A stretch of 4,310 nucleotides of DNA from a virus (IMGVR_UViG_3300029437_000178); one strand, 5' to 3'. Positions 1,578-4,310 are shown, numbered from the stretch's first letter. Numbers and translations are program-made. The notes: generated by a model not told the origin, from the sequence alone.

Positions 1578-2480
1578 TTAACCCTCCAGTGCTTTTTCAG
1601 CCAGGGTGATTACTTCAGCGAGATTTTCATCCGTTACTTCACCAAGTTTCCTGGCTCCCTGTTTTTCCAGAATTGCAATAGCTTCTGCCCGGTAACCCCC
1701 TTTTGCTAACTGGAGGATCAACCCTTCAGCTTGTTTGCGTAGTGCCGCGAAATCAATTGTATGGTCATCTTTGGCGTCATGATTCTGGCTGGAATTTGCT
1801 GCGTCTCTGCGTGCAAATTCTTCTTGCAGCTGAAGGTACTCAACACGGTTGATCTCGATATGGCCTTTTTTCAGCATCTCGTTCAACTTGCGTAAGGTGT
1901 GGAGTTCACTGGCTGCTGTGCCGGATACATTTTTGACGTAAAACGGCCCCGTGCGTTCTCCATCTTTGTTACTGGCCTTTTTCGGCTTAACTTCATCACG
2001 CCCATCCGCAGGTGCATCAAGTAGCTGCTCGGCAAAAACACGTCGCTCGCCGATGGTTGGCAGGTCGTCCCAGAACTTAAGGATGTTACGGGACAGGTCC
2101 AGGAGAGCAGGTTTAAGCAGCGCCCTGGCTCGTTTGACGCCCTGCAATGCGCTGTCGAGAGCATCAATCTGAACTACTCGTTTATCGCCTTCAGCATCAC
2201 GGTAGGCAACAGCACGTTGCAGCATGTCTTCTGTGATAGGGGTGGCTACCGGGTAGAAACCAGCCAGTGCGATAACGTCGCTGAACTCCAGATCATCCAG
2301 TGTCATTGCCGCTGACATATTTTCAGTTTCAGTTGCTGTATCCCGACATTCCTGCACTCGTGAAATCGTGTCAGGATGCATAACAATGCCTGATGCCATT
2401 GTGCGGATAAGACGTTCAAGCAGCGCATTATGTTGTGCCAGAAGTTGATTATTAAGTTCGAGACTGGTTTCTAAACTCAT
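1578..2480 (-). CDS. Hypothetical phage protein, 300 aa, acidic and predicted largely helical; likely functional partner of the downstream nuclease
   Basis: 300-aa ORF with SD GAGG 8 nt upstream of the ATG. Its ATG overlaps the stop of the upstream small ORF (ATGA) and its stop sits 2 nt before the nuclease ATG, indicating translational coupling. No Walker A motif and no family signature I recognise. Confidence 0.75.
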
Positions 2481-2647
2481 ACTGTGGTCCTCGCTACAAG
2501 GAGAATGAAAGTGATGATCAGACCGAGCGCAGTGGCAACGGCCAGACCGGTCATCAAATCGAAGTTTTTACGGCGATAACGGAGAACATCGCGCCCCGTC
2601 AGTCGATGGAGGTATTCAGGTTTCATCGGTTGTATTCCTTTTTTCAT
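2477..2647 (-). CDS. Small protein with a C-terminal transmembrane helix (49-69 aa depending on start)
   Basis: The ORF track gives 2477..2686, which begins at a GTG. In-frame ATGs at 2647 and 2626 are more plausible, the latter with AAGGA about 9 nt upstream. The C-terminus DLMTGLAVATALGLIITFILLVA is a clear hydrophobic helix preceded by a basic stretch (RYRRK). Its stop overlaps the ATG of the 300-aa gene. Confidence 0.5.
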   Translation of the reverse strand: MKKGIQPMKPEYLHRLTGRDVLRYRRKNFDLMTGLAVATALGLIITFILLVARTTV

Positions 2648-2743
2648 ATCGGGGAGCACGCTGTGAGGCGGGCAAAGGCTACACACAGCAATTACTTGGA
2701 TGTCAGCGAATGCCTGCTTTTAACCACGTCAGACGAGATGGCT

Positions 2744-2806
2744 CTCTCTGTACCCCTACAGCGAGAATTCGGCTAATATCTCTTTACCCCTATAGTTTTA
2801 GAGAGA
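2744..2806. promoter_or_regulatory. Direct ~18-bp repeats and candidate -10 elements upstream of the 174-aa gene
   Basis: CTCTCTGTACCCCTACAG (2744-2761) and ATCTCTTTACCCCTATAG (2778-2795) match at 15 of 18 positions, 34 bp apart. Candidate -10 hexamers TAATAT (2774-2779) and TATAGT (2791-2796) have poor -35 matches. TTTTAGAGAGA follows the second repeat. Confidence 0.3.
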
Positions 2807-2812
2807 ATTAAG

Positions 2813-3337
2813 ATGTCTGAAGAAAAAGGACTTGTACGGCGTATAACTGAGGCGGCCACTAGTGCTGGTGGTGCTTTGAAAGGTGCTGTTGATTTAGCAA
2901 AAGAAGTTAATGCGTTGCAGGTGGATTACAATGTTAAAAGTAAAACTATCGATCTACTTGATAAACTAATTGATGCGCGTACTGGACAATTCGCACTAAC
3001 GGAGCTTTTGAACGAAGCTAAACAGCGCATTGTTGAACTCGAATCCCTTCTGGAAAAGAAACAGGATTGGGATAGTGAGAAAATGAACTATGAAATGTAC
3101 CACCCGATTACCAATACGGTGGTCTATGTACTGAAGCCTACTGACGATCCTGAGTTCAAGCCTCATTATCTTTGTACTACATGCTATGAGTCGGGTATGA
3201 AGTCTATACTTCAATACCATACTTCTAATGCCGCTTATAAAATTCTCAAGTGTCATAAATGCTCCGCTGAATATAAATTTCCCCGAAATATAGAAGTCAG
3301 TGGCAAAACTCCTGCACCGTTACAACCTGCCAGATGA
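2813..3337 (+). CDS. Hypothetical protein, 174 aa: N-terminal coiled-coil-like region plus C-terminal C4 zinc-ribbon-like motif (CTTC...CHKC)
   Basis: Clean 525-nt ORF on the strand opposite to all neighbouring genes, with a weak SD-like GAGAG 7 nt before the ATG. It is visibly AT-richer than the flanks (~40% GC versus ~50% by eye). Heptad-like charged and leucine-rich stretch (LLDKLIDARTGQFALTELLNEAKQRIVELESLLEKKQ) followed by CxxC-x22-CxxC. No similarity I can name. Confidence 0.7.
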   Translation: MSEEKGLVRRITEAATSAGGALKGAVDLAKEVNALQVDYNVKSKTIDLLDKLIDARTGQFALTELLNEAKQRIVELESLLEKKQDWDSEKMNYEMYHPITNTVVYVLKPTDDPEFKPHYLCTTCYESGMKSILQYHTSNAAYKILKCHKCSAEYKFPRNIEVSGKTPAPLQPAR

Positions 3338-3430
3338 TTAGCAGTTCTCTTTGGTGGTGGTGTAGTGGTAGATGCTGAACTTCGGATTGACTCAATGGAC
3401 TGATCTTCACCCCACCCCAAAAGGAACTAA

Positions 3431-3448
3431 GCGCCCCATCGTCGGGGC
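3431..3448. terminator. GC-rich hairpin between the converging 174-aa gene and the leftward leader; possible weak or bidirectional terminator
   Basis: CGCCCC-atcgtc-GGGGCG, a 6-bp GC stem. It is followed by TTTCAACTT on the plus strand and CTTAGTTCCTTTT on the minus strand; neither is a strong U-tract. Confidence 0.3.
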
Positions 3449-3493
3449 GTTTCAACTTGCGTGACTTATCAGTTTGTCGCGGTGTTGTCCTCT

Positions 3494-3578
3494 ACGCTTA
3501 CCGTACGCATACGGACTCGGCGCTTACCTCGATCCCATCGGGTGCTATTTCGTTTTGCCAGGAGTACTGCGGCTTACC
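3494..3578. repeat. Three direct copies of GCTTACC (plus strand) in the ORF-free leader
   Basis: GCTTACC at 3495-3501, 3521-3527 and 3571-3577 (8-mers CGCTTACC twice, GCTTACCT twice); spacing 26 and 50 bp. A palindromic hairpin CCGTA-CGCA-TACGG at 3500-3513 overlaps the first copy. Confidence 0.4.
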
Positions 3579-3593
3579 TGTCACGCGGTTCAG

Positions 3594-3606
3594 TTTGTTA
3601 AAGAGC
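3594..3606 (-). promoter_or_regulatory. boxA-like element in the leader RNA
   Basis: Minus-strand GCTCTTTTAACAA, about 30 nt downstream of the predicted start. It resembles the boxA core (CGCTCTT / rrn-type GCTCTTTAACAA) of Nus-dependent antitermination sites, with one extra T. Confidence 0.3.
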
Positions 3607-3619
3607 CAGTATTAAAAAA

Positions 3620-3652
3620 CGCATTAATTATGCGATATCGTATTTATATGCG
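3620..3652. promoter_or_regulatory. Operator-like palindromes overlapping the -10 and start site of the leftward promoter
   Basis: 15-bp near-palindrome CGCATTAATTATGCG (3620-3634; 6 of 7 symmetric pairs around a central A) and a weaker related site CGTATTTATATGCG (3639-3652) sharing the ATGCG half-site. Confidence 0.35.
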
Positions 3653-3671
3653 TTATGGGATTTTGTGTCAA
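3643..3671 (-). promoter_or_regulatory. Near-consensus sigma70 promoter reading leftward (candidate early-left, pL-like promoter)
   Basis: On the minus strand: -35 TTGACA (plus coordinates 3666-3671), exactly 17-bp spacer, -10 TATAAA (3643-3648). An AT-rich UP-like tract lies upstream (3672-3695). Predicted start near 3636. Confidence 0.55.
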
Positions 3672-3700
3672 TACGAAAATGAATTATTTTGCAAATAAGA

Positions 3701-3725
3701 AAACCGCCCTTGTGGAGAGCGGTTT
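3701..3725 (-). terminator. Intrinsic terminator of the repressor transcript
   Basis: Perfect 7-bp stem AAACCGC / GCGGTTT with an 11-nt loop. On the minus strand it is followed by a U-rich tract (TCTTATTTGC...). It lies 30 nt downstream of the repressor stop. Confidence 0.55.
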
Positions 3726-3755
3726 GATCAGAAGTAAGTTATCAGACTGTAAAGG

Positions 3756-4310
3756 TTAGTACATACGTAGCGCGGATTTGGCGATCCCCGCCACGTAATG
3801 GATTTTTTCAATGTTTTCGCGTGGTACTCTGACTGGTGGATGATCTTCATTTACAGACATTAGATGGAACAGGCCATCGCGTTCGAACAAGAAGGTTTTA
3901 ACCATGACCTCACCTTCCCGGGTAACCACAAGTACTTCATCACCAGNNNNNNNNNNAGTCGTGGTTGGGTTCGACGATTACGAACTCCCCCTCTTTGATT
4001 CTAGGCATCATTGAATCACCAACACATTTCAGGGCGTATGCATCTTCATCCTTTGTCGGCCAGTATATGAAACCATCACTGCTACCTACTGAATATTGGG
4101 TGTCGCTCCAAAGTCCTCCAACGCCTAGCTGAGTGTTTCCCAAAACAGGTACTTTATTAAACCTAAGAGAAATATACGTTTTTATACCTGTCGCGTCCTC
4201 TTTCTCCATTTCTTGAAGGCTCCTTTCTGCCAAGTCTATTGGTGACACGTGGAAGTAGTCGGCGATCTGCTTTAACGTTGCGTATTTCGGATCTTTCACC
4301 TCTCCTGATA
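3756..4310 (-). CDS. LexA/CI-type repressor (S24 peptidase family); interrupted by a 10-N gap, and the 5' end probably lies beyond the window
   Basis: Minus-strand ORF 3940..4299 translates to an N-terminal HTH-like segment (TLKQIADYFHVSPIDLAE), a linker (VPVLGNTQLGVGG), then GDSMMP (Ser nucleophile motif) and EGEFVIVEP. After the N-run the other frame continues GDEVLVVTREGEVMVKTF...IHYVAGIAKSALRMY to TAA at 3758..3756, carrying the Lys of the Ser-Lys dyad and aligning by eye with LexA (DGDLLAVHK...VTVKRL). The track's stop at 3940 is an artefact of the gap. The start in the track is a GTG at 4299, and the frame stays open to the window end. Confidence 0.85.
3947..3956. other. Assembly gap (10 N) inside the repressor gene
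   Basis: Run of n characters. Flanking coding frames differ by one position, so the true gap length is not a multiple of 3 or is not exactly 10. Confidence 0.95.

What the first reader, a model, noticed from the sequence alone, without database searches (positions are those of the whole stretch)
2813..3337. Orphan, AT-rich, opposite-strand gene (174 aa, coiled coil plus C4 zinc ribbon) between the repressor and the early operon
This gene is the only plus-strand gene in the window, is AT-richer than both flanks, and sits between the repressor/early promoter and the recombination-type operon. In temperate phages that position classically carries lysogen-expressed cargo such as exclusion or abortive-infection genes (lambda rexAB and sieB are the textbook case). 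The protein combines a heptad-like helical N-terminus with CxxC-x22-CxxC and matches nothing I can name. It is also transcribed head-on against the strong leftward promoter at 3643-3671, so its expression would be antagonised when early transcription fires, as expected for a lysogeny-phase gene. Candidate single-gene defence, exclusion or regulatory protein.
Basis: partly seen in the sequence, partly recalled or inferred. Interest (0 to 1): 0.7.

Follow-up and report, generated by a model that had tools for sequence, protein, structure and literature searches.

The report
Prophage Rip1 pore-forming anti-phage gene
The 174-residue opposite-strand gene is a real, intact member of the recently described Rip1 family, a one-protein prophage defence that detects ring-shaped assembly proteins of an invading phage and punches holes in the cell membrane; it sits in the slot, and behind the promoter, that phages lambda and P22 use for their exclusion gene sieB.

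Summary
The ORF at 2813-3337 (+) is real: 174 aa, exactly four Cys (CxxC-x22-CxxC), GC 0.41 against 0.49/0.45 in the flanks, and the only credible plus-strand gene in the window. It is not an orphan. It matches HK446 Rip1 ("ring interacting pore 1", PDB 9oox, bound to T6 small terminase) at E=8.4e-45 and 47% identity, and the predicted fold matches at Foldseek probability 1.0. An exhaustive profile search finds about 2,700 clusters of similar 150-175 aa proteins. These include the gene between terS and terL in Pseudomonas Mu-like phages, where Rip1 was discovered (Patel et al., Nature 2026).

The 100 nt upstream are homologous to the lambda/P22 sieB promoter, which places a likely start site near 2786. 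SieB-family genes follow the same element in other phages.

In related E. coli prophages the flanks are 98-99% identical. The slot between them holds this allele, a 45%-identical Rip1 allele, an unrelated short ORF, or nothing annotated.

The gene is a new member of a known kind, with modest interest. Its trigger specificity and expression are untested.

The parts
2702..3428 (+). Swappable cassette occupying a slot between conserved prophage flanks: promoter element, rip1 CDS and an allele-specific 3' UTR.
   Evidence: Six related prophages were aligned. Identity is kept up to about window 2701 and resumes at the hairpin near 3429. Against phage 689R2, nucleotide identity is 98-99% in the flanks, 84% in the promoter element, 53% in the CDS and 40% in the 3' UTR.
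2711..2748 (+). Upstream part of the sieB-type element: tGCCTG..AACCAC(2722-2727)..TCAGaCG..aTGGcT(2738-2743). In most phages this is a potential hairpin; it is degenerate in this copy.
   Evidence: Conserved in front of rip1 and sieB genes of unrelated phages. There is one compensatory change in L036 but several uncompensated ones, and the window copy has 3 arm substitutions. RNA structure is therefore not established.
2749..2779 (+). Promoter homologous to P22/lambda PsieB: -35-like TGTACC at 2749-2754 and -10 TAATAT at 2774-2779.
   Evidence: It aligns column for column with the annotated P22 sieB promoter (BK000583 29690-29720). The -10 position is kept as TAATAT, TAAAAT or TATAAT in other alleles. 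The consensus scanner did not call it because of the poor -35.
2752..2761 (+). Direct repeat 1, ACCCCTACAG, overlapping the -35 region.
   Evidence: L036 keeps the same layout with a different repeat (CCGCAACGTAA, two copies).
2786..2795 (+). Direct repeat 2, ACCCCTATAG. Its first base corresponds to the mapped P22 sieB RNA start, giving a predicted TSS near 2786 and a 27-nt 5' UTR with Shine-Dalgarno GAGAGA at 2801-2806.
   Evidence: The P22 annotation 'sieB RNA start site' (BK000583 29727) was transferred through alignment A6. This is inferred by homology and was not measured here.
2813..3337 (+). rip1 homologue, 174 aa (RefSeq WP_001288046.1, annotated 'hypothetical protein').
   Evidence: phmmer against PDB 9oox (HK446 Rip1): E=8.4e-45 over residues 3-159. 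Foldseek probability 1.00, E=4.9e-11. PHROG 1244.
2813..3088 (+). N-terminal helical half (aa 1-92): Ala/Gly-rich helices at 4-16 and 21-34, then a long helix at 39-92. In Rip1 this half is the proposed pore-forming part.
   Evidence: AF2 model. The role is taken from the review of Patel et al.. A simple hydrophobic-moment test was inconclusive.
3089..3292 (+). C-terminal beta-rich Cys4 (zinc-ribbon-like) domain, aa 93-160. Cys codons lie at 3173-3175, 3182-3184, 3251-3253 and 3260-3262. In Rip1 this half is the proposed ring-contacting sensor.
   Evidence: AF2 pLDDT is 87-91 in this region. Across 20 diverse family members, including HK446, HK620 and the Pseudomonas proteins, C121 and C124 are invariant and C147 and C150 are at least 90% conserved.
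3429..3452 (.). 9-bp GC-rich hairpin (AAGCGCCCC-ATCGTC-GGGGCGTTT). It is the right boundary of the slot and a likely weak or bidirectional terminator for rip1.
   Evidence: Fold. It is conserved in prophages with different slot contents. The T-tract is too weak for the scanner.
3643..3671 (-). pL-like early-left promoter, TTGACA-17-TATAAA, convergent with rip1. Two 17-nt direct repeats at 3629-3645 and 3647-3663 are candidate operators.
   Evidence: This block (about 3608-3700) changes together with the repressor type in L006 and L008, while the leader to its left stays conserved.
3701..3725 (-). Intrinsic terminator after the repressor gene.
   Evidence: 10-bp stem followed by TCTTATTT.
3756..4310 (-). 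CI/LexA-type S24 repressor gene. It is partial at the window end and interrupted by an N-run at 3947-3956.
   Evidence: Pfam Peptidase_S24 and PHROG 4. Full length is 224 aa in the reference genomes.
2477..2626 (-). 49-aa first gene of the leftward replication/recombination operon; it forms the left neighbour of the slot.
   Evidence: RefSeq annotation in H10407 and PHROG 11981.

Best explanation
The gene encodes a Rip1-family (ring interacting pore 1) abortive-infection protein carried by a temperate myovirus-type prophage of E. coli.

Proposed mechanism:
1. In the lysogen, the gene is transcribed rightward from its own sieB-type promoter (start near 2786) and ends at the hairpin at 3429-3452. 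The protein is harmless on its own.
2. When another phage infects and makes its oligomeric ring proteins late in infection (small terminase, or portal), the C-terminal Cys4 domain of about twelve Rip1 copies docks around the ring.
3. The N-terminal helices are thereby brought together into a membrane pore.
4. The inner membrane is breached before progeny are finished, so the infected cell dies without releasing phage.

Basis of each step:
- Shown here: homology, fold, conserved motifs, genomic slot, promoter homology, and allelic and presence/absence variation.
- Taken from the literature on HK446 and Pseudomonas Rip1: trigger, stoichiometry and pore formation.
- Inferred: that this 47%-identical allele works the same way, that it is expressed in the lysogen, and that convergent transcription from the pL-like promoter at 3671-3643 turns it down during the prophage's own lytic growth.
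For: Homology and fold:
- Sequence: E=8.4e-45 and 47% identity to HK446 Rip1 over 157 of 164 residues.
- Fold: Foldseek probability 1.00, TM 0.60 normalised to the target, against chains of 9oox, the Rip1-T6 small terminase complex.
- Same size and two-part architecture across about 2,689 clusters.
- The Cys4 motif plus W86, Y93 and H118 are conserved from E. coli to the Pseudomonas members.
- Homologues at E=1e-13 in D3112, JBD30 and DMS3 lie between the DNA-binding/small-terminase gene and terL on the opposite strand. This is the location reported for the original Pseudomonas Rip1.

Genomic setting:
- HK446 Rip1 and HK620 HkaP sit between N and ral/cIII, antisense to pL. Here the gene sits just downstream of a pL-like promoter, also antisense.
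- The upstream element is homologous to the lambda/P22 sieB promoter, which has a mapped RNA start.
- The slot is variable and mosaic, as expected for a defence gene under diversifying pressure.
- The gene is intact in ETEC H10407, whose prophage carries a frameshifted DNA polymerase gene and an SNF2 gene with an internal stop.

Mechanistic description: review PMC13434031 section 5, PMC12908700, and the citation in the Avs2/Upx paper.
Against: - No experiment exists for this allele, and 47% identity leaves room for a different trigger or none.
- The primary paper (Patel et al. 2026, Nature 651:1060) could not be read here, so mechanistic details rest on a review and a PDB title.
- The hydrophobic-moment test did not single out an amphipathic helix above shuffled controls (306 of 1000 shuffles did as well), and there is no classical transmembrane segment.
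- No sigma-70 promoter passes the consensus scan upstream of the gene. The promoter call rests on homology to P22.
- The window copy of the upstream element carries three substitutions in the conserved hairpin arms.
- PADLOC (2023) has no model for the protein, so no independent defence-database call is available.
Confidence: 0.85

Rival explanations
1. It is a Rip1-fold protein that has diverged to another job for the prophage itself, for example timing lysis or controlling terminase/packaging by binding the phage's own small terminase ring, rather than defending against other phages.
For: The family binds terminase or portal rings. In Pseudomonas Mu-like phages the gene lies between terS and terL. 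The allele here is only 45-47% identical to its nearest characterised or neighbouring alleles.
Against: - The gene is antisense to every lytic operon it sits in.
- It is dispensable: closely related prophages lack it.
- It shares a promoter with sieB, a lysogen-expressed exclusion gene.
- The characterised members act against other phages.
Confidence: 0.06
2. It is a zinc-ribbon nucleic-acid-binding regulator (transcriptional or translational), which is the 'regulatory protein' option of the first reader.
For: Cys4 zinc ribbons are common in small phage regulators such as Ogr/Delta and Com (general knowledge, not tested here). There are weak sub-threshold hits to CxxC zinc-binding families. 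Unexplained direct repeats flank its own promoter.
Against: - No regulator family is matched.
- The only significant structural and sequence relative is Rip1.
- The repeats are also present upstream of the unrelated sieB genes, so they do not track this protein.
Confidence: 0.03
3. It is an inert remnant: a gene carried along in a decaying prophage, not expressed and without phenotype.
For: The H10407 prophage has pseudogenes. The window copy has deletions in DUF2815 and in the intergenic terminator. The hairpin part of the upstream element is degenerate in this allele.
Against: - The ORF is intact and 99-100% conserved in 26 complete genomes from different hosts.
- All family-invariant residues are present.
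- The core promoter, the repeats and the Shine-Dalgarno sequence are intact.
Confidence: 0.06

Closest known systems
Rip1 (ring interacting pore 1) of Escherichia phage HK446, gp37; PDB 9oox with T6 small terminase; Patel et al., Nature 2026
   Same: - 47% identity over the whole length, with the same fold.
- Same Cys4, W, Y and H motifs.
- Same upstream sieB-type promoter element.
- Same orientation, antisense to the early-left operon just downstream of pL.
   Different: - A different phage backbone: a myovirus-type prophage with DUF2800/DUF2815/DNA polymerase replication genes, against the lambdoid siphovirus HK446.
- No N gene between pL and the cassette.
- 10 residues longer at the C-terminus.
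- About half of the residues differ, including in the sensor half (46% identity for aa 93-160), so the trigger range may differ.
- This allele has not been tested.
Rip1 of Pseudomonas aeruginosa Mu-like prophages (homologues D3112 orf25, JBD30 gp30, DMS3)
   Same: The same family (tblastn 1e-13, 29-31% identity) with conserved Cys4. A single gene on the strand opposite to the surrounding lytic genes.
   Different: It is located in the late region between terS and terL rather than next to the immunity region. It lacks the sieB-type promoter. The reported escape mutations are in the portal rather than the small terminase.
SieB of phages lambda and P22 (Pfam PF14163)
   Same: - The same slot and orientation, antisense within or next to the pL operon.
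- A homologous promoter element with two ACCCCTACAG repeats.
- The same kind of role, a prophage-expressed abortive-infection or exclusion gene (annotations; sas/Esc literature).
   Different: The proteins are unrelated. There is no PF14163 match and no hydrophobic membrane segments. No in-frame Esc-like second product or sas antisense RNA was identified.
HkaP of phage HK620 / HK630
   Same: A distant Rip1-family member (27% identity, E=4e-4 by tblastn) behind a nearly identical promoter element (98% to HK446). RefSeq annotates it 'putative superinfection exclusion protein'.
   Different: A much more divergent protein, and uncharacterised.

Membership tests
Rip1 (ring interacting pore 1) | Significant sequence similarity over the full length to an experimentally characterised Rip1 | tested here: met
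   phmmer against PDB: 9oox chain L (HK446 Rip1), E=8.4e-45, query 3-159 against target 3-160 of 164. tblastn: 47.5% identity to HK446.
Rip1 (ring interacting pore 1) | Fold: N-terminal helical part plus a compact C-terminal domain, superposable on solved Rip1 | tested here: met
   AF2 model at pLDDT 77. Foldseek against PDB: 9oox_M, E=4.9e-11, probability 1.00, TM 0.47 (query) / 0.60 (target) over 121 columns. The next hit has E=0.13.
Rip1 (ring interacting pore 1) | Family-wide conserved residues (CxxC...CxxC, W86, Y93, H118) | tested here: met
   In a 20-sequence alignment including HK446, HK620, D3112, JBD30 and 14 distant representatives, Y93, C121 and C124 are invariant, and W86, H118, C147 and C150 are at least 90% conserved. 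Zinc binding itself was not tested.
Rip1 (ring interacting pore 1) | Stand-alone single gene of about 150-175 aa in a prophage, with no partner gene | tested here: met
   Prophage context in ETEC H10407. It is a lone plus-strand gene between minus-strand genes here and in 689R2, HK446, HK620, D3112 and JBD30. By crude ORF calling, both nearest neighbours of at least 90 aa are on the opposite strand in 10 of 18 informative IMG/VR loci.
Rip1 (ring interacting pore 1) | N-terminal amphipathic helix able to form the pore | tested here: inconclusive
   Helices are predicted at 4-16, 21-34 and 39-92. The maximum hydrophobic moment is 0.49 at residues 5-24, but 306 of 1000 shuffles reach this value, and HK446 Rip1 itself does no better.
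Rip1 (ring interacting pore 1) | Not toxic alone; activated by binding an oligomeric phage ring (small terminase 11-mer or portal) as a 12-mer; permeabilises the membrane | not testable with these tools
   Known for HK446 and Pseudomonas Rip1 from the literature only. Testing needs co-expression, liposome assays or cryo-EM.
Rip1 (ring interacting pore 1) | Confers resistance to heterologous phages | not testable with these tools
   Needs plaque assays with the cloned cassette.
SieB (PF14163) | Match to the SieB Pfam domain | tested here: not met
   There is no PF14163 hit at E<=0.1. Proteins behind the same promoter element in L042 and L045 do hit it, at 4e-15 and 1.5e-17.
SieB (PF14163) | Hydrophobic membrane-spanning segments | tested here: not met
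   The maximum 19-residue Kyte-Doolittle mean is 0.67.
SieB (PF14163) | Genomic slot and PsieB promoter | tested here: met
   The upstream element aligns with lambda 34396-34481 and with P22 29652-29736, which is annotated as the sieB promoter and RNA start. This shows a shared expression module, not protein family membership.
PADLOC-catalogued defence systems (2023) | Match to any PADLOC model | tested here: not met
   The only hit is a chance-level one (PDC-M27A, E=0.035). The library predates Rip1.

The most novel reading that the evidence does not exclude
The sieB-type element is made of a promoter bracketed by two ACCCCTACAG direct repeats (one at the -35, one at the RNA start) and a conserved upstream TCAGGCG/hairpin block. 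It may be a portable control module shared by at least two unrelated abortive-infection effectors, SieB and several Rip1 lineages, and by several phage backbones.

Its conservation is higher than that of the proteins it drives: about 84-98% nucleotide identity against 27-47% amino-acid identity. This would mean that an as yet unidentified factor, or an antisense mechanism like P22 sas, gates these suicide genes so that the prophage's own lytic cycle does not set them off. It would also mean that recombination within the module swaps effector alleles with different trigger ranges, for example the 174-aa against the 189-aa Rip1 in otherwise 98-99% identical prophages.
Probability: 0.25. Interest if true: 0.55.

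Novelty: new member of a known kind. Interest (0 to 1): 0.3.

Why it matters
The result names the function of a gene that RefSeq still labels 'hypothetical' in enterotoxigenic (H10407) and Shiga-toxin-group (O103:H2, O45:H2) E. coli. It predicts that these lysogens abort infections by phages whose terminase or portal rings the protein recognises. That is relevant to phage therapy and phage typing of these strains.

It also shows that Rip1 and SieB are interchangeable cargo behind one conserved promoter module, and that nearly identical prophages carry different Rip1 alleles or none. This offers a natural allele series for working out what sets Rip1 trigger specificity.

Tried and rejected
Searches that gave nothing useful for the protein:
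- Pfam, NCBIfam and PADLOC: only a sub-threshold coiled-coil hit and chance CxxC hits.
- Rfam over the whole window: nothing credible.

Tests that were inconclusive or negative:
- The hydrophobic-moment and Kyte-Doolittle analysis of the N-terminus was inconclusive.
- The conserved 150-nt leader between the pL-like promoter and the hairpin (3455-3607, minus strand) was folded. It is no more stable than shuffles (z=+0.55), so there is no support for a put-like antiterminator RNA.
- A 32-codon Arg-rich minus-strand ORF in that leader, seen in L005, was rejected because its GTG start is GTA in the window and no such ORF is listed there.
- The hairpin upstream of the promoter was checked for covariation across about 25 distinct copies. 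There is one compensatory pair in L036 but several uncompensated changes, so it is not claimed as an RNA structure.

Ideas dropped:
- A resemblance of ACCCCTATAG..GAGAGA to T3/T7-type promoters was considered and dropped as too weak. It was an inspection only; other alleles read CTACAG.

Technical failures and limits:
- The search for related loci with the diverse alignment A5 failed for lack of a conserved stretch; A1 was used instead.
- The first pattern scan used a gap of 25-35 nt and therefore missed copies with a 24-nt spacer. About two thirds of its 28 hits were unrelated Thr/Pro-rich repeat coding sequence.
- The primary Rip1 paper is not in the library, and no preprint was found.

Full report
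**1. The observation**

The window contains an ATG-started ORF at 2813-3337 on the + strand encoding 174 aa. It has exactly four cysteines, at residues 121, 124, 147 and 150, which gives CxxC-x22-CxxC. Its GC content is 0.41 (GC3 0.34), against 0.487 for the leftward operon and 0.453 for the right flank.

All other credible genes in the window are on the minus strand:
- DUF2815 (partial)
- a DUF2800 / PD-(D/E)XK exonuclease
- a 300-aa protein (PHROG 6784)
- a 49-aa protein
- a CI/LexA-type S24 repressor

On the minus strand it reads TTGACA (3671-3666), 17 nt, TATAAA (3648-3643). Two 17-nt direct repeats overlap it.

The description is therefore accurate. The word 'orphan' is not.

**2. Where the window comes from**

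The window is 99.7% identical to a prophage integrated next to yfhL in E. coli ETEC H10407, O103:H2 12009, O45:H2 and others. In total, 157 of 5,426 complete genomes carry a relative.

The prophage layout, is:
- integrase;
- a long leftward operon: SNF2, Dcm methylase, VRR-NUC, DNA polymerase, DUF2815, DUF2800, the 300-aa gene and the 49-aa gene;
- the gene in question, on the opposite strand;
- repressor (leftward) and cro (rightward);
- VapE primase, Q, lysis genes and myovirus-type structural genes.

RefSeq calls the gene 'hypothetical protein' (WP_001288046.1).

**3. What the protein is**

Pfam, NCBIfam and PADLOC give nothing useful. PHROGs places it in family 1244, of unknown function, at 1.8e-43.

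A word-indexed search found 17 close relatives in Escherichia, Citrobacter, Edwardsiella, Tatumella, Pantoea, Providencia and Arsenophonus. A profile of these, searched exhaustively, found 2,689 clusters at E<=1e-3 and 1,089 at E<=1e-10. Nearly all are 150-175 aa and match end to end.

An AlphaFold model built on the alignment has mean pLDDT 77. It shows short helices at 4-16 and 21-34, one long helix at 39-92, and a compact beta-rich domain at 93-157 that holds the four cysteines.

Foldseek against the PDB returned one significant target: chains of 9oox, 'Cryo-EM structure of the Escherichia phage HK446 Rip1 in complex with the Enterobacteria phage T6 small terminase'. The match has E=4.9e-11, probability 1.00 and 47% identity. 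The next hit has E=0.13. Sequence search of the PDB confirms the match at E=8.4e-45, residues 3-159 against 3-160 of 164; the molecule name is 'ring interacting pore 1 (Rip1)'.

**4. What Rip1 does, from the literature**

The primary paper is Patel, McCarthy, Taylor et al., Nature 651:1060-1067 (2026), doi 10.1038/s41586-025-10075-1. It is not in the library.

A 2026 review summarises it (PMC13434031, section 5):
- A P. aeruginosa prophage gene between the small and large terminase genes protects the lysogen.
- Infected cells round up.
- Rip1 alone is not toxic.
- Escape mutants map to the portal (Pseudomonas phages) or the small terminase (E. coli phages).
- An 11-mer terminase ring is surrounded by 12 Rip1 subunits.
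- The N-terminal part is an amphipathic helix, and the C-terminal half contacts the ring.
- The assembly forms a pore that releases dye from liposomes and makes holes in cells.
- Homologues are widespread in proteobacterial prophages.

A conference report and a terminase-sensing paper (the Avs2/Upx paper, read here as its bioRxiv version) agree.

**5. Membership**

tblastn against phage genomes finds the family in these places:

| Phage(s) | Identity to the window protein |
|---|---|
| HK446, ev099, vB_EcoP-720R6 | 47-48% |
| vB_EcoM-689R2 group | 44% |
| HK620, HK630, HK629 (HkaP) | 27% |
| An Stx1a phage | 27.9% |
| Rhodobacter phage RcWaterboi | 30.3% |
| 31 Pseudomonas phage records, mostly Mu-like (D3112 orf25, DMS3, JBD30 gp30, MP38) | 25-31% |

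In D3112 and JBD30 the gene lies between the DNA-binding (small terminase) gene and terL, on the opposite strand. That is the location reported for the original Rip1.

An alignment of 20 diverse members shows Y93, C121 and C124 invariant, and W86, H118, C147 and C150 at least 90% conserved.

The one defining feature I could not confirm computationally is amphipathicity of the N-terminus. The highest hydrophobic moment (0.49, residues 5-24) is matched by 31% of shuffles, and HK446 Rip1 does no better in the same test. Trigger binding, oligomerisation, pore formation and protection cannot be tested with these tools.

**6. The slot and the promoter**

In HK446 the rip1 gene lies between N and ral/cIII, antisense to the pL operon. 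HK620 hkaP is in the same place and is annotated 'putative superinfection exclusion protein'.

Comparing the 130 nt upstream of the start codon across loci showed that this stretch is far better conserved than the proteins. Searching phage genomes with the HK446 copy hit 143 records. They include lambda at 34396-34481, immediately upstream of sieB, and P22 at 29652-29736, annotated 'sieB: promoter | sieB RNA start site'.

Alignment A6 transfers the P22 features to the window:

| Feature | Window coordinates |
|---|---|
| -35-like TGTACC | 2749-2754 |
| -10 TAATAT | 2774-2779 |
| RNA start (predicted) | about 2786 |
| Shine-Dalgarno GAGAGA | 2801-2806 |
| ATG | 2813 |

Two ACCCCTAYAG direct repeats sit on the -35 region (2752-2761) and on the start site (2786-2795). 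A diverged locus, L036, keeps the same layout with a different repeat and a perfect TATAAT.

In three IMG/VR contigs the same element precedes another gene: bona fide SieB-family ORFs in L042 and L045 (PF14163, E=4e-15 and 1.5e-17) and, in L046, an ORF whose first 41 residues are identical to the L042 protein.

Rip1 and SieB are therefore alternative cargo behind one promoter module. Expression in the lysogen is inferred from this homology. It was not measured.

**7. Variation at the locus**

Against phage 689R2, nucleotide identity by segment is:

| Segment | Identity |
|---|---|
| 300-aa gene | 99.2% |
| 49-aa gene | 98.7% |
| Promoter element | 83.7% |
| rip1 CDS | 53.2% (45% at protein level) |
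| 3' UTR | 40.2% |
| Hairpin plus leader | 97.7% |
| pL block | 98.0% |
| Repressor | 99.1% |

Among 152 E. coli genomes with the left flank, 26 carry this allele. Others carry:
- the 189-aa allele (L007);
- a 68-69 aa minus-strand ORF instead (L005, L009);
- no annotated gene and no Rip1 remnant (L006, L008).

The slot is bounded on the left near window 2701. On the right it is bounded by a conserved 9-bp GC-rich hairpin at 3429-3452, which folds as the obvious rip1 terminator.

**8. Relation to early transcription**

The block containing the TTGACA-17-TATAAA promoter and its repeats (about 3608-3700) changes together with the repressor allele. The leader to its left does not. This supports its role as the repressor-controlled early-left promoter.

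Transcripts from it must cross the hairpin, the whole rip1 cassette in antisense, and, in reference genomes, a strong minus-strand terminator (GCCCGCC-TCAAGT-GACGGGC-TTTTTTAT) before reaching the 49-aa gene. How read-through is achieved is unknown. The leader shows no unusual folding and no Rfam match.

It is plausible that lytic transcription silences rip1. In P22 an antisense RNA, sas, switches off SieB. For rip1 this is untested.

**9. Verdict**

The family was described in 2026 with a structure and a mechanism, so this gene is a new, untested member of a known kind.

What may go beyond the published summary available to me:
- the shared sieB-type promoter module with its direct repeats;
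- the allele and presence/absence polymorphism between near-identical prophages;
- the placement of the cassette in a non-lambdoid replication-module context.

Confidence that it is a Rip1-type abortive-infection gene is 0.85. Interest is 0.3.

Noticed in passing
window after ~241, after ~2663, and 3947-3956: The window differs from every close E. coli genome in three places. It lacks 40 bp in the 5' end of the DUF2815 gene, which shifts the frame, and the site is flanked by a near-repeat TT(T/C)AGCTTCA. It lacks 38 bp in the intergenic region left of the rip1 cassette. A 10-N run stands for 6 nt of the repressor gene (codons Y-T-P). These could be real deletions in the source strain or assembly or masking artefacts.
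   Followed up: partly
window 2650-2690 (reference: L002 22700-22745): The missing 38 bp hold one arm of a strong minus-strand intrinsic terminator (GCCCGCC-TCAAGT-GACGGGC-TTTTTTAT). It lies between the rip1 cassette and the first gene of the leftward operon and is conserved in all six related prophages compared. Early-left transcription from the pL-like promoter would need antitermination or a second promoter to pass it. In the window copy the terminator is destroyed.
   Followed up: partly
window 2711-2812; also L004, L010, L021-L038, L042, L045, L060, L069, L070: The sieB-type promoter element has two ACCCCTACAG direct repeats (one at the -35, one at the RNA start) and an upstream TCAGGCG/hairpin block. 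It is shared by rip1 and sieB genes in 143 phage records and is more conserved than the proteins. No binding factor is known to me. L036 keeps the architecture with a different repeat sequence.
   Followed up: partly
window 3455-3607 (minus strand): About 150 nt of leader between the pL-like promoter and the hairpin is 98% conserved whatever the immunity type or slot content. It has no conserved ORF, no Rfam hit and no unusual folding energy. Its function is unexplained.
   Followed up: partly
window 3629-3663: Two 17-nt direct repeats (TATGCGATATCGTATTT and TATGCGTTATGGGATTT, 18 nt apart) overlap the -10 and spacer of the pL-like promoter. A short hairpin plus T-run lies at 3634-3620 on the minus strand, right at the expected transcript start. 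The repeats are probably repressor operators, because the block co-varies with the repressor allele.
   Followed up: partly
L005 1955-2164 (-) and L009 1907-2113 (-): In some sister prophages the slot holds a 68-69 aa minus-strand ORF (MRNHKMPKYKLVNDLAIGDKIEF...) instead of rip1. It has no Pfam match and no known function.
   Followed up: partly
L002 19068-19697 (+) and 14229-15158 (+): Two further opposite-strand genes (209 aa and 309 aa) are embedded in the leftward operon of the same prophage. Neither has a Pfam hit. The 209-aa one has no PADLOC hit and only sub-threshold NCBIfam hits. They are candidate additional morons or defence genes.
   Followed up: partly
L002 12724-14118 and 16947-19021: In ETEC H10407 the prophage's SNF2 gene has an internal stop and its DNA polymerase gene is frameshifted, while rip1 is intact. 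This is consistent with retention of host-beneficial cargo in a decaying prophage.
   Followed up: no
hits H22/H94 (E. coli JNEC-KY208): An IS2 element appears to be inserted just downstream of the rip1 stop codon (query position ~1062 of 2300-3760, window ~3361) in one genome.
   Followed up: no
L006 258-776 (-): One sister prophage has a NUMOD4-domain gene, probably a homing endonuclease, inserted between the DUF2800 gene and the 300-aa gene.
   Followed up: no
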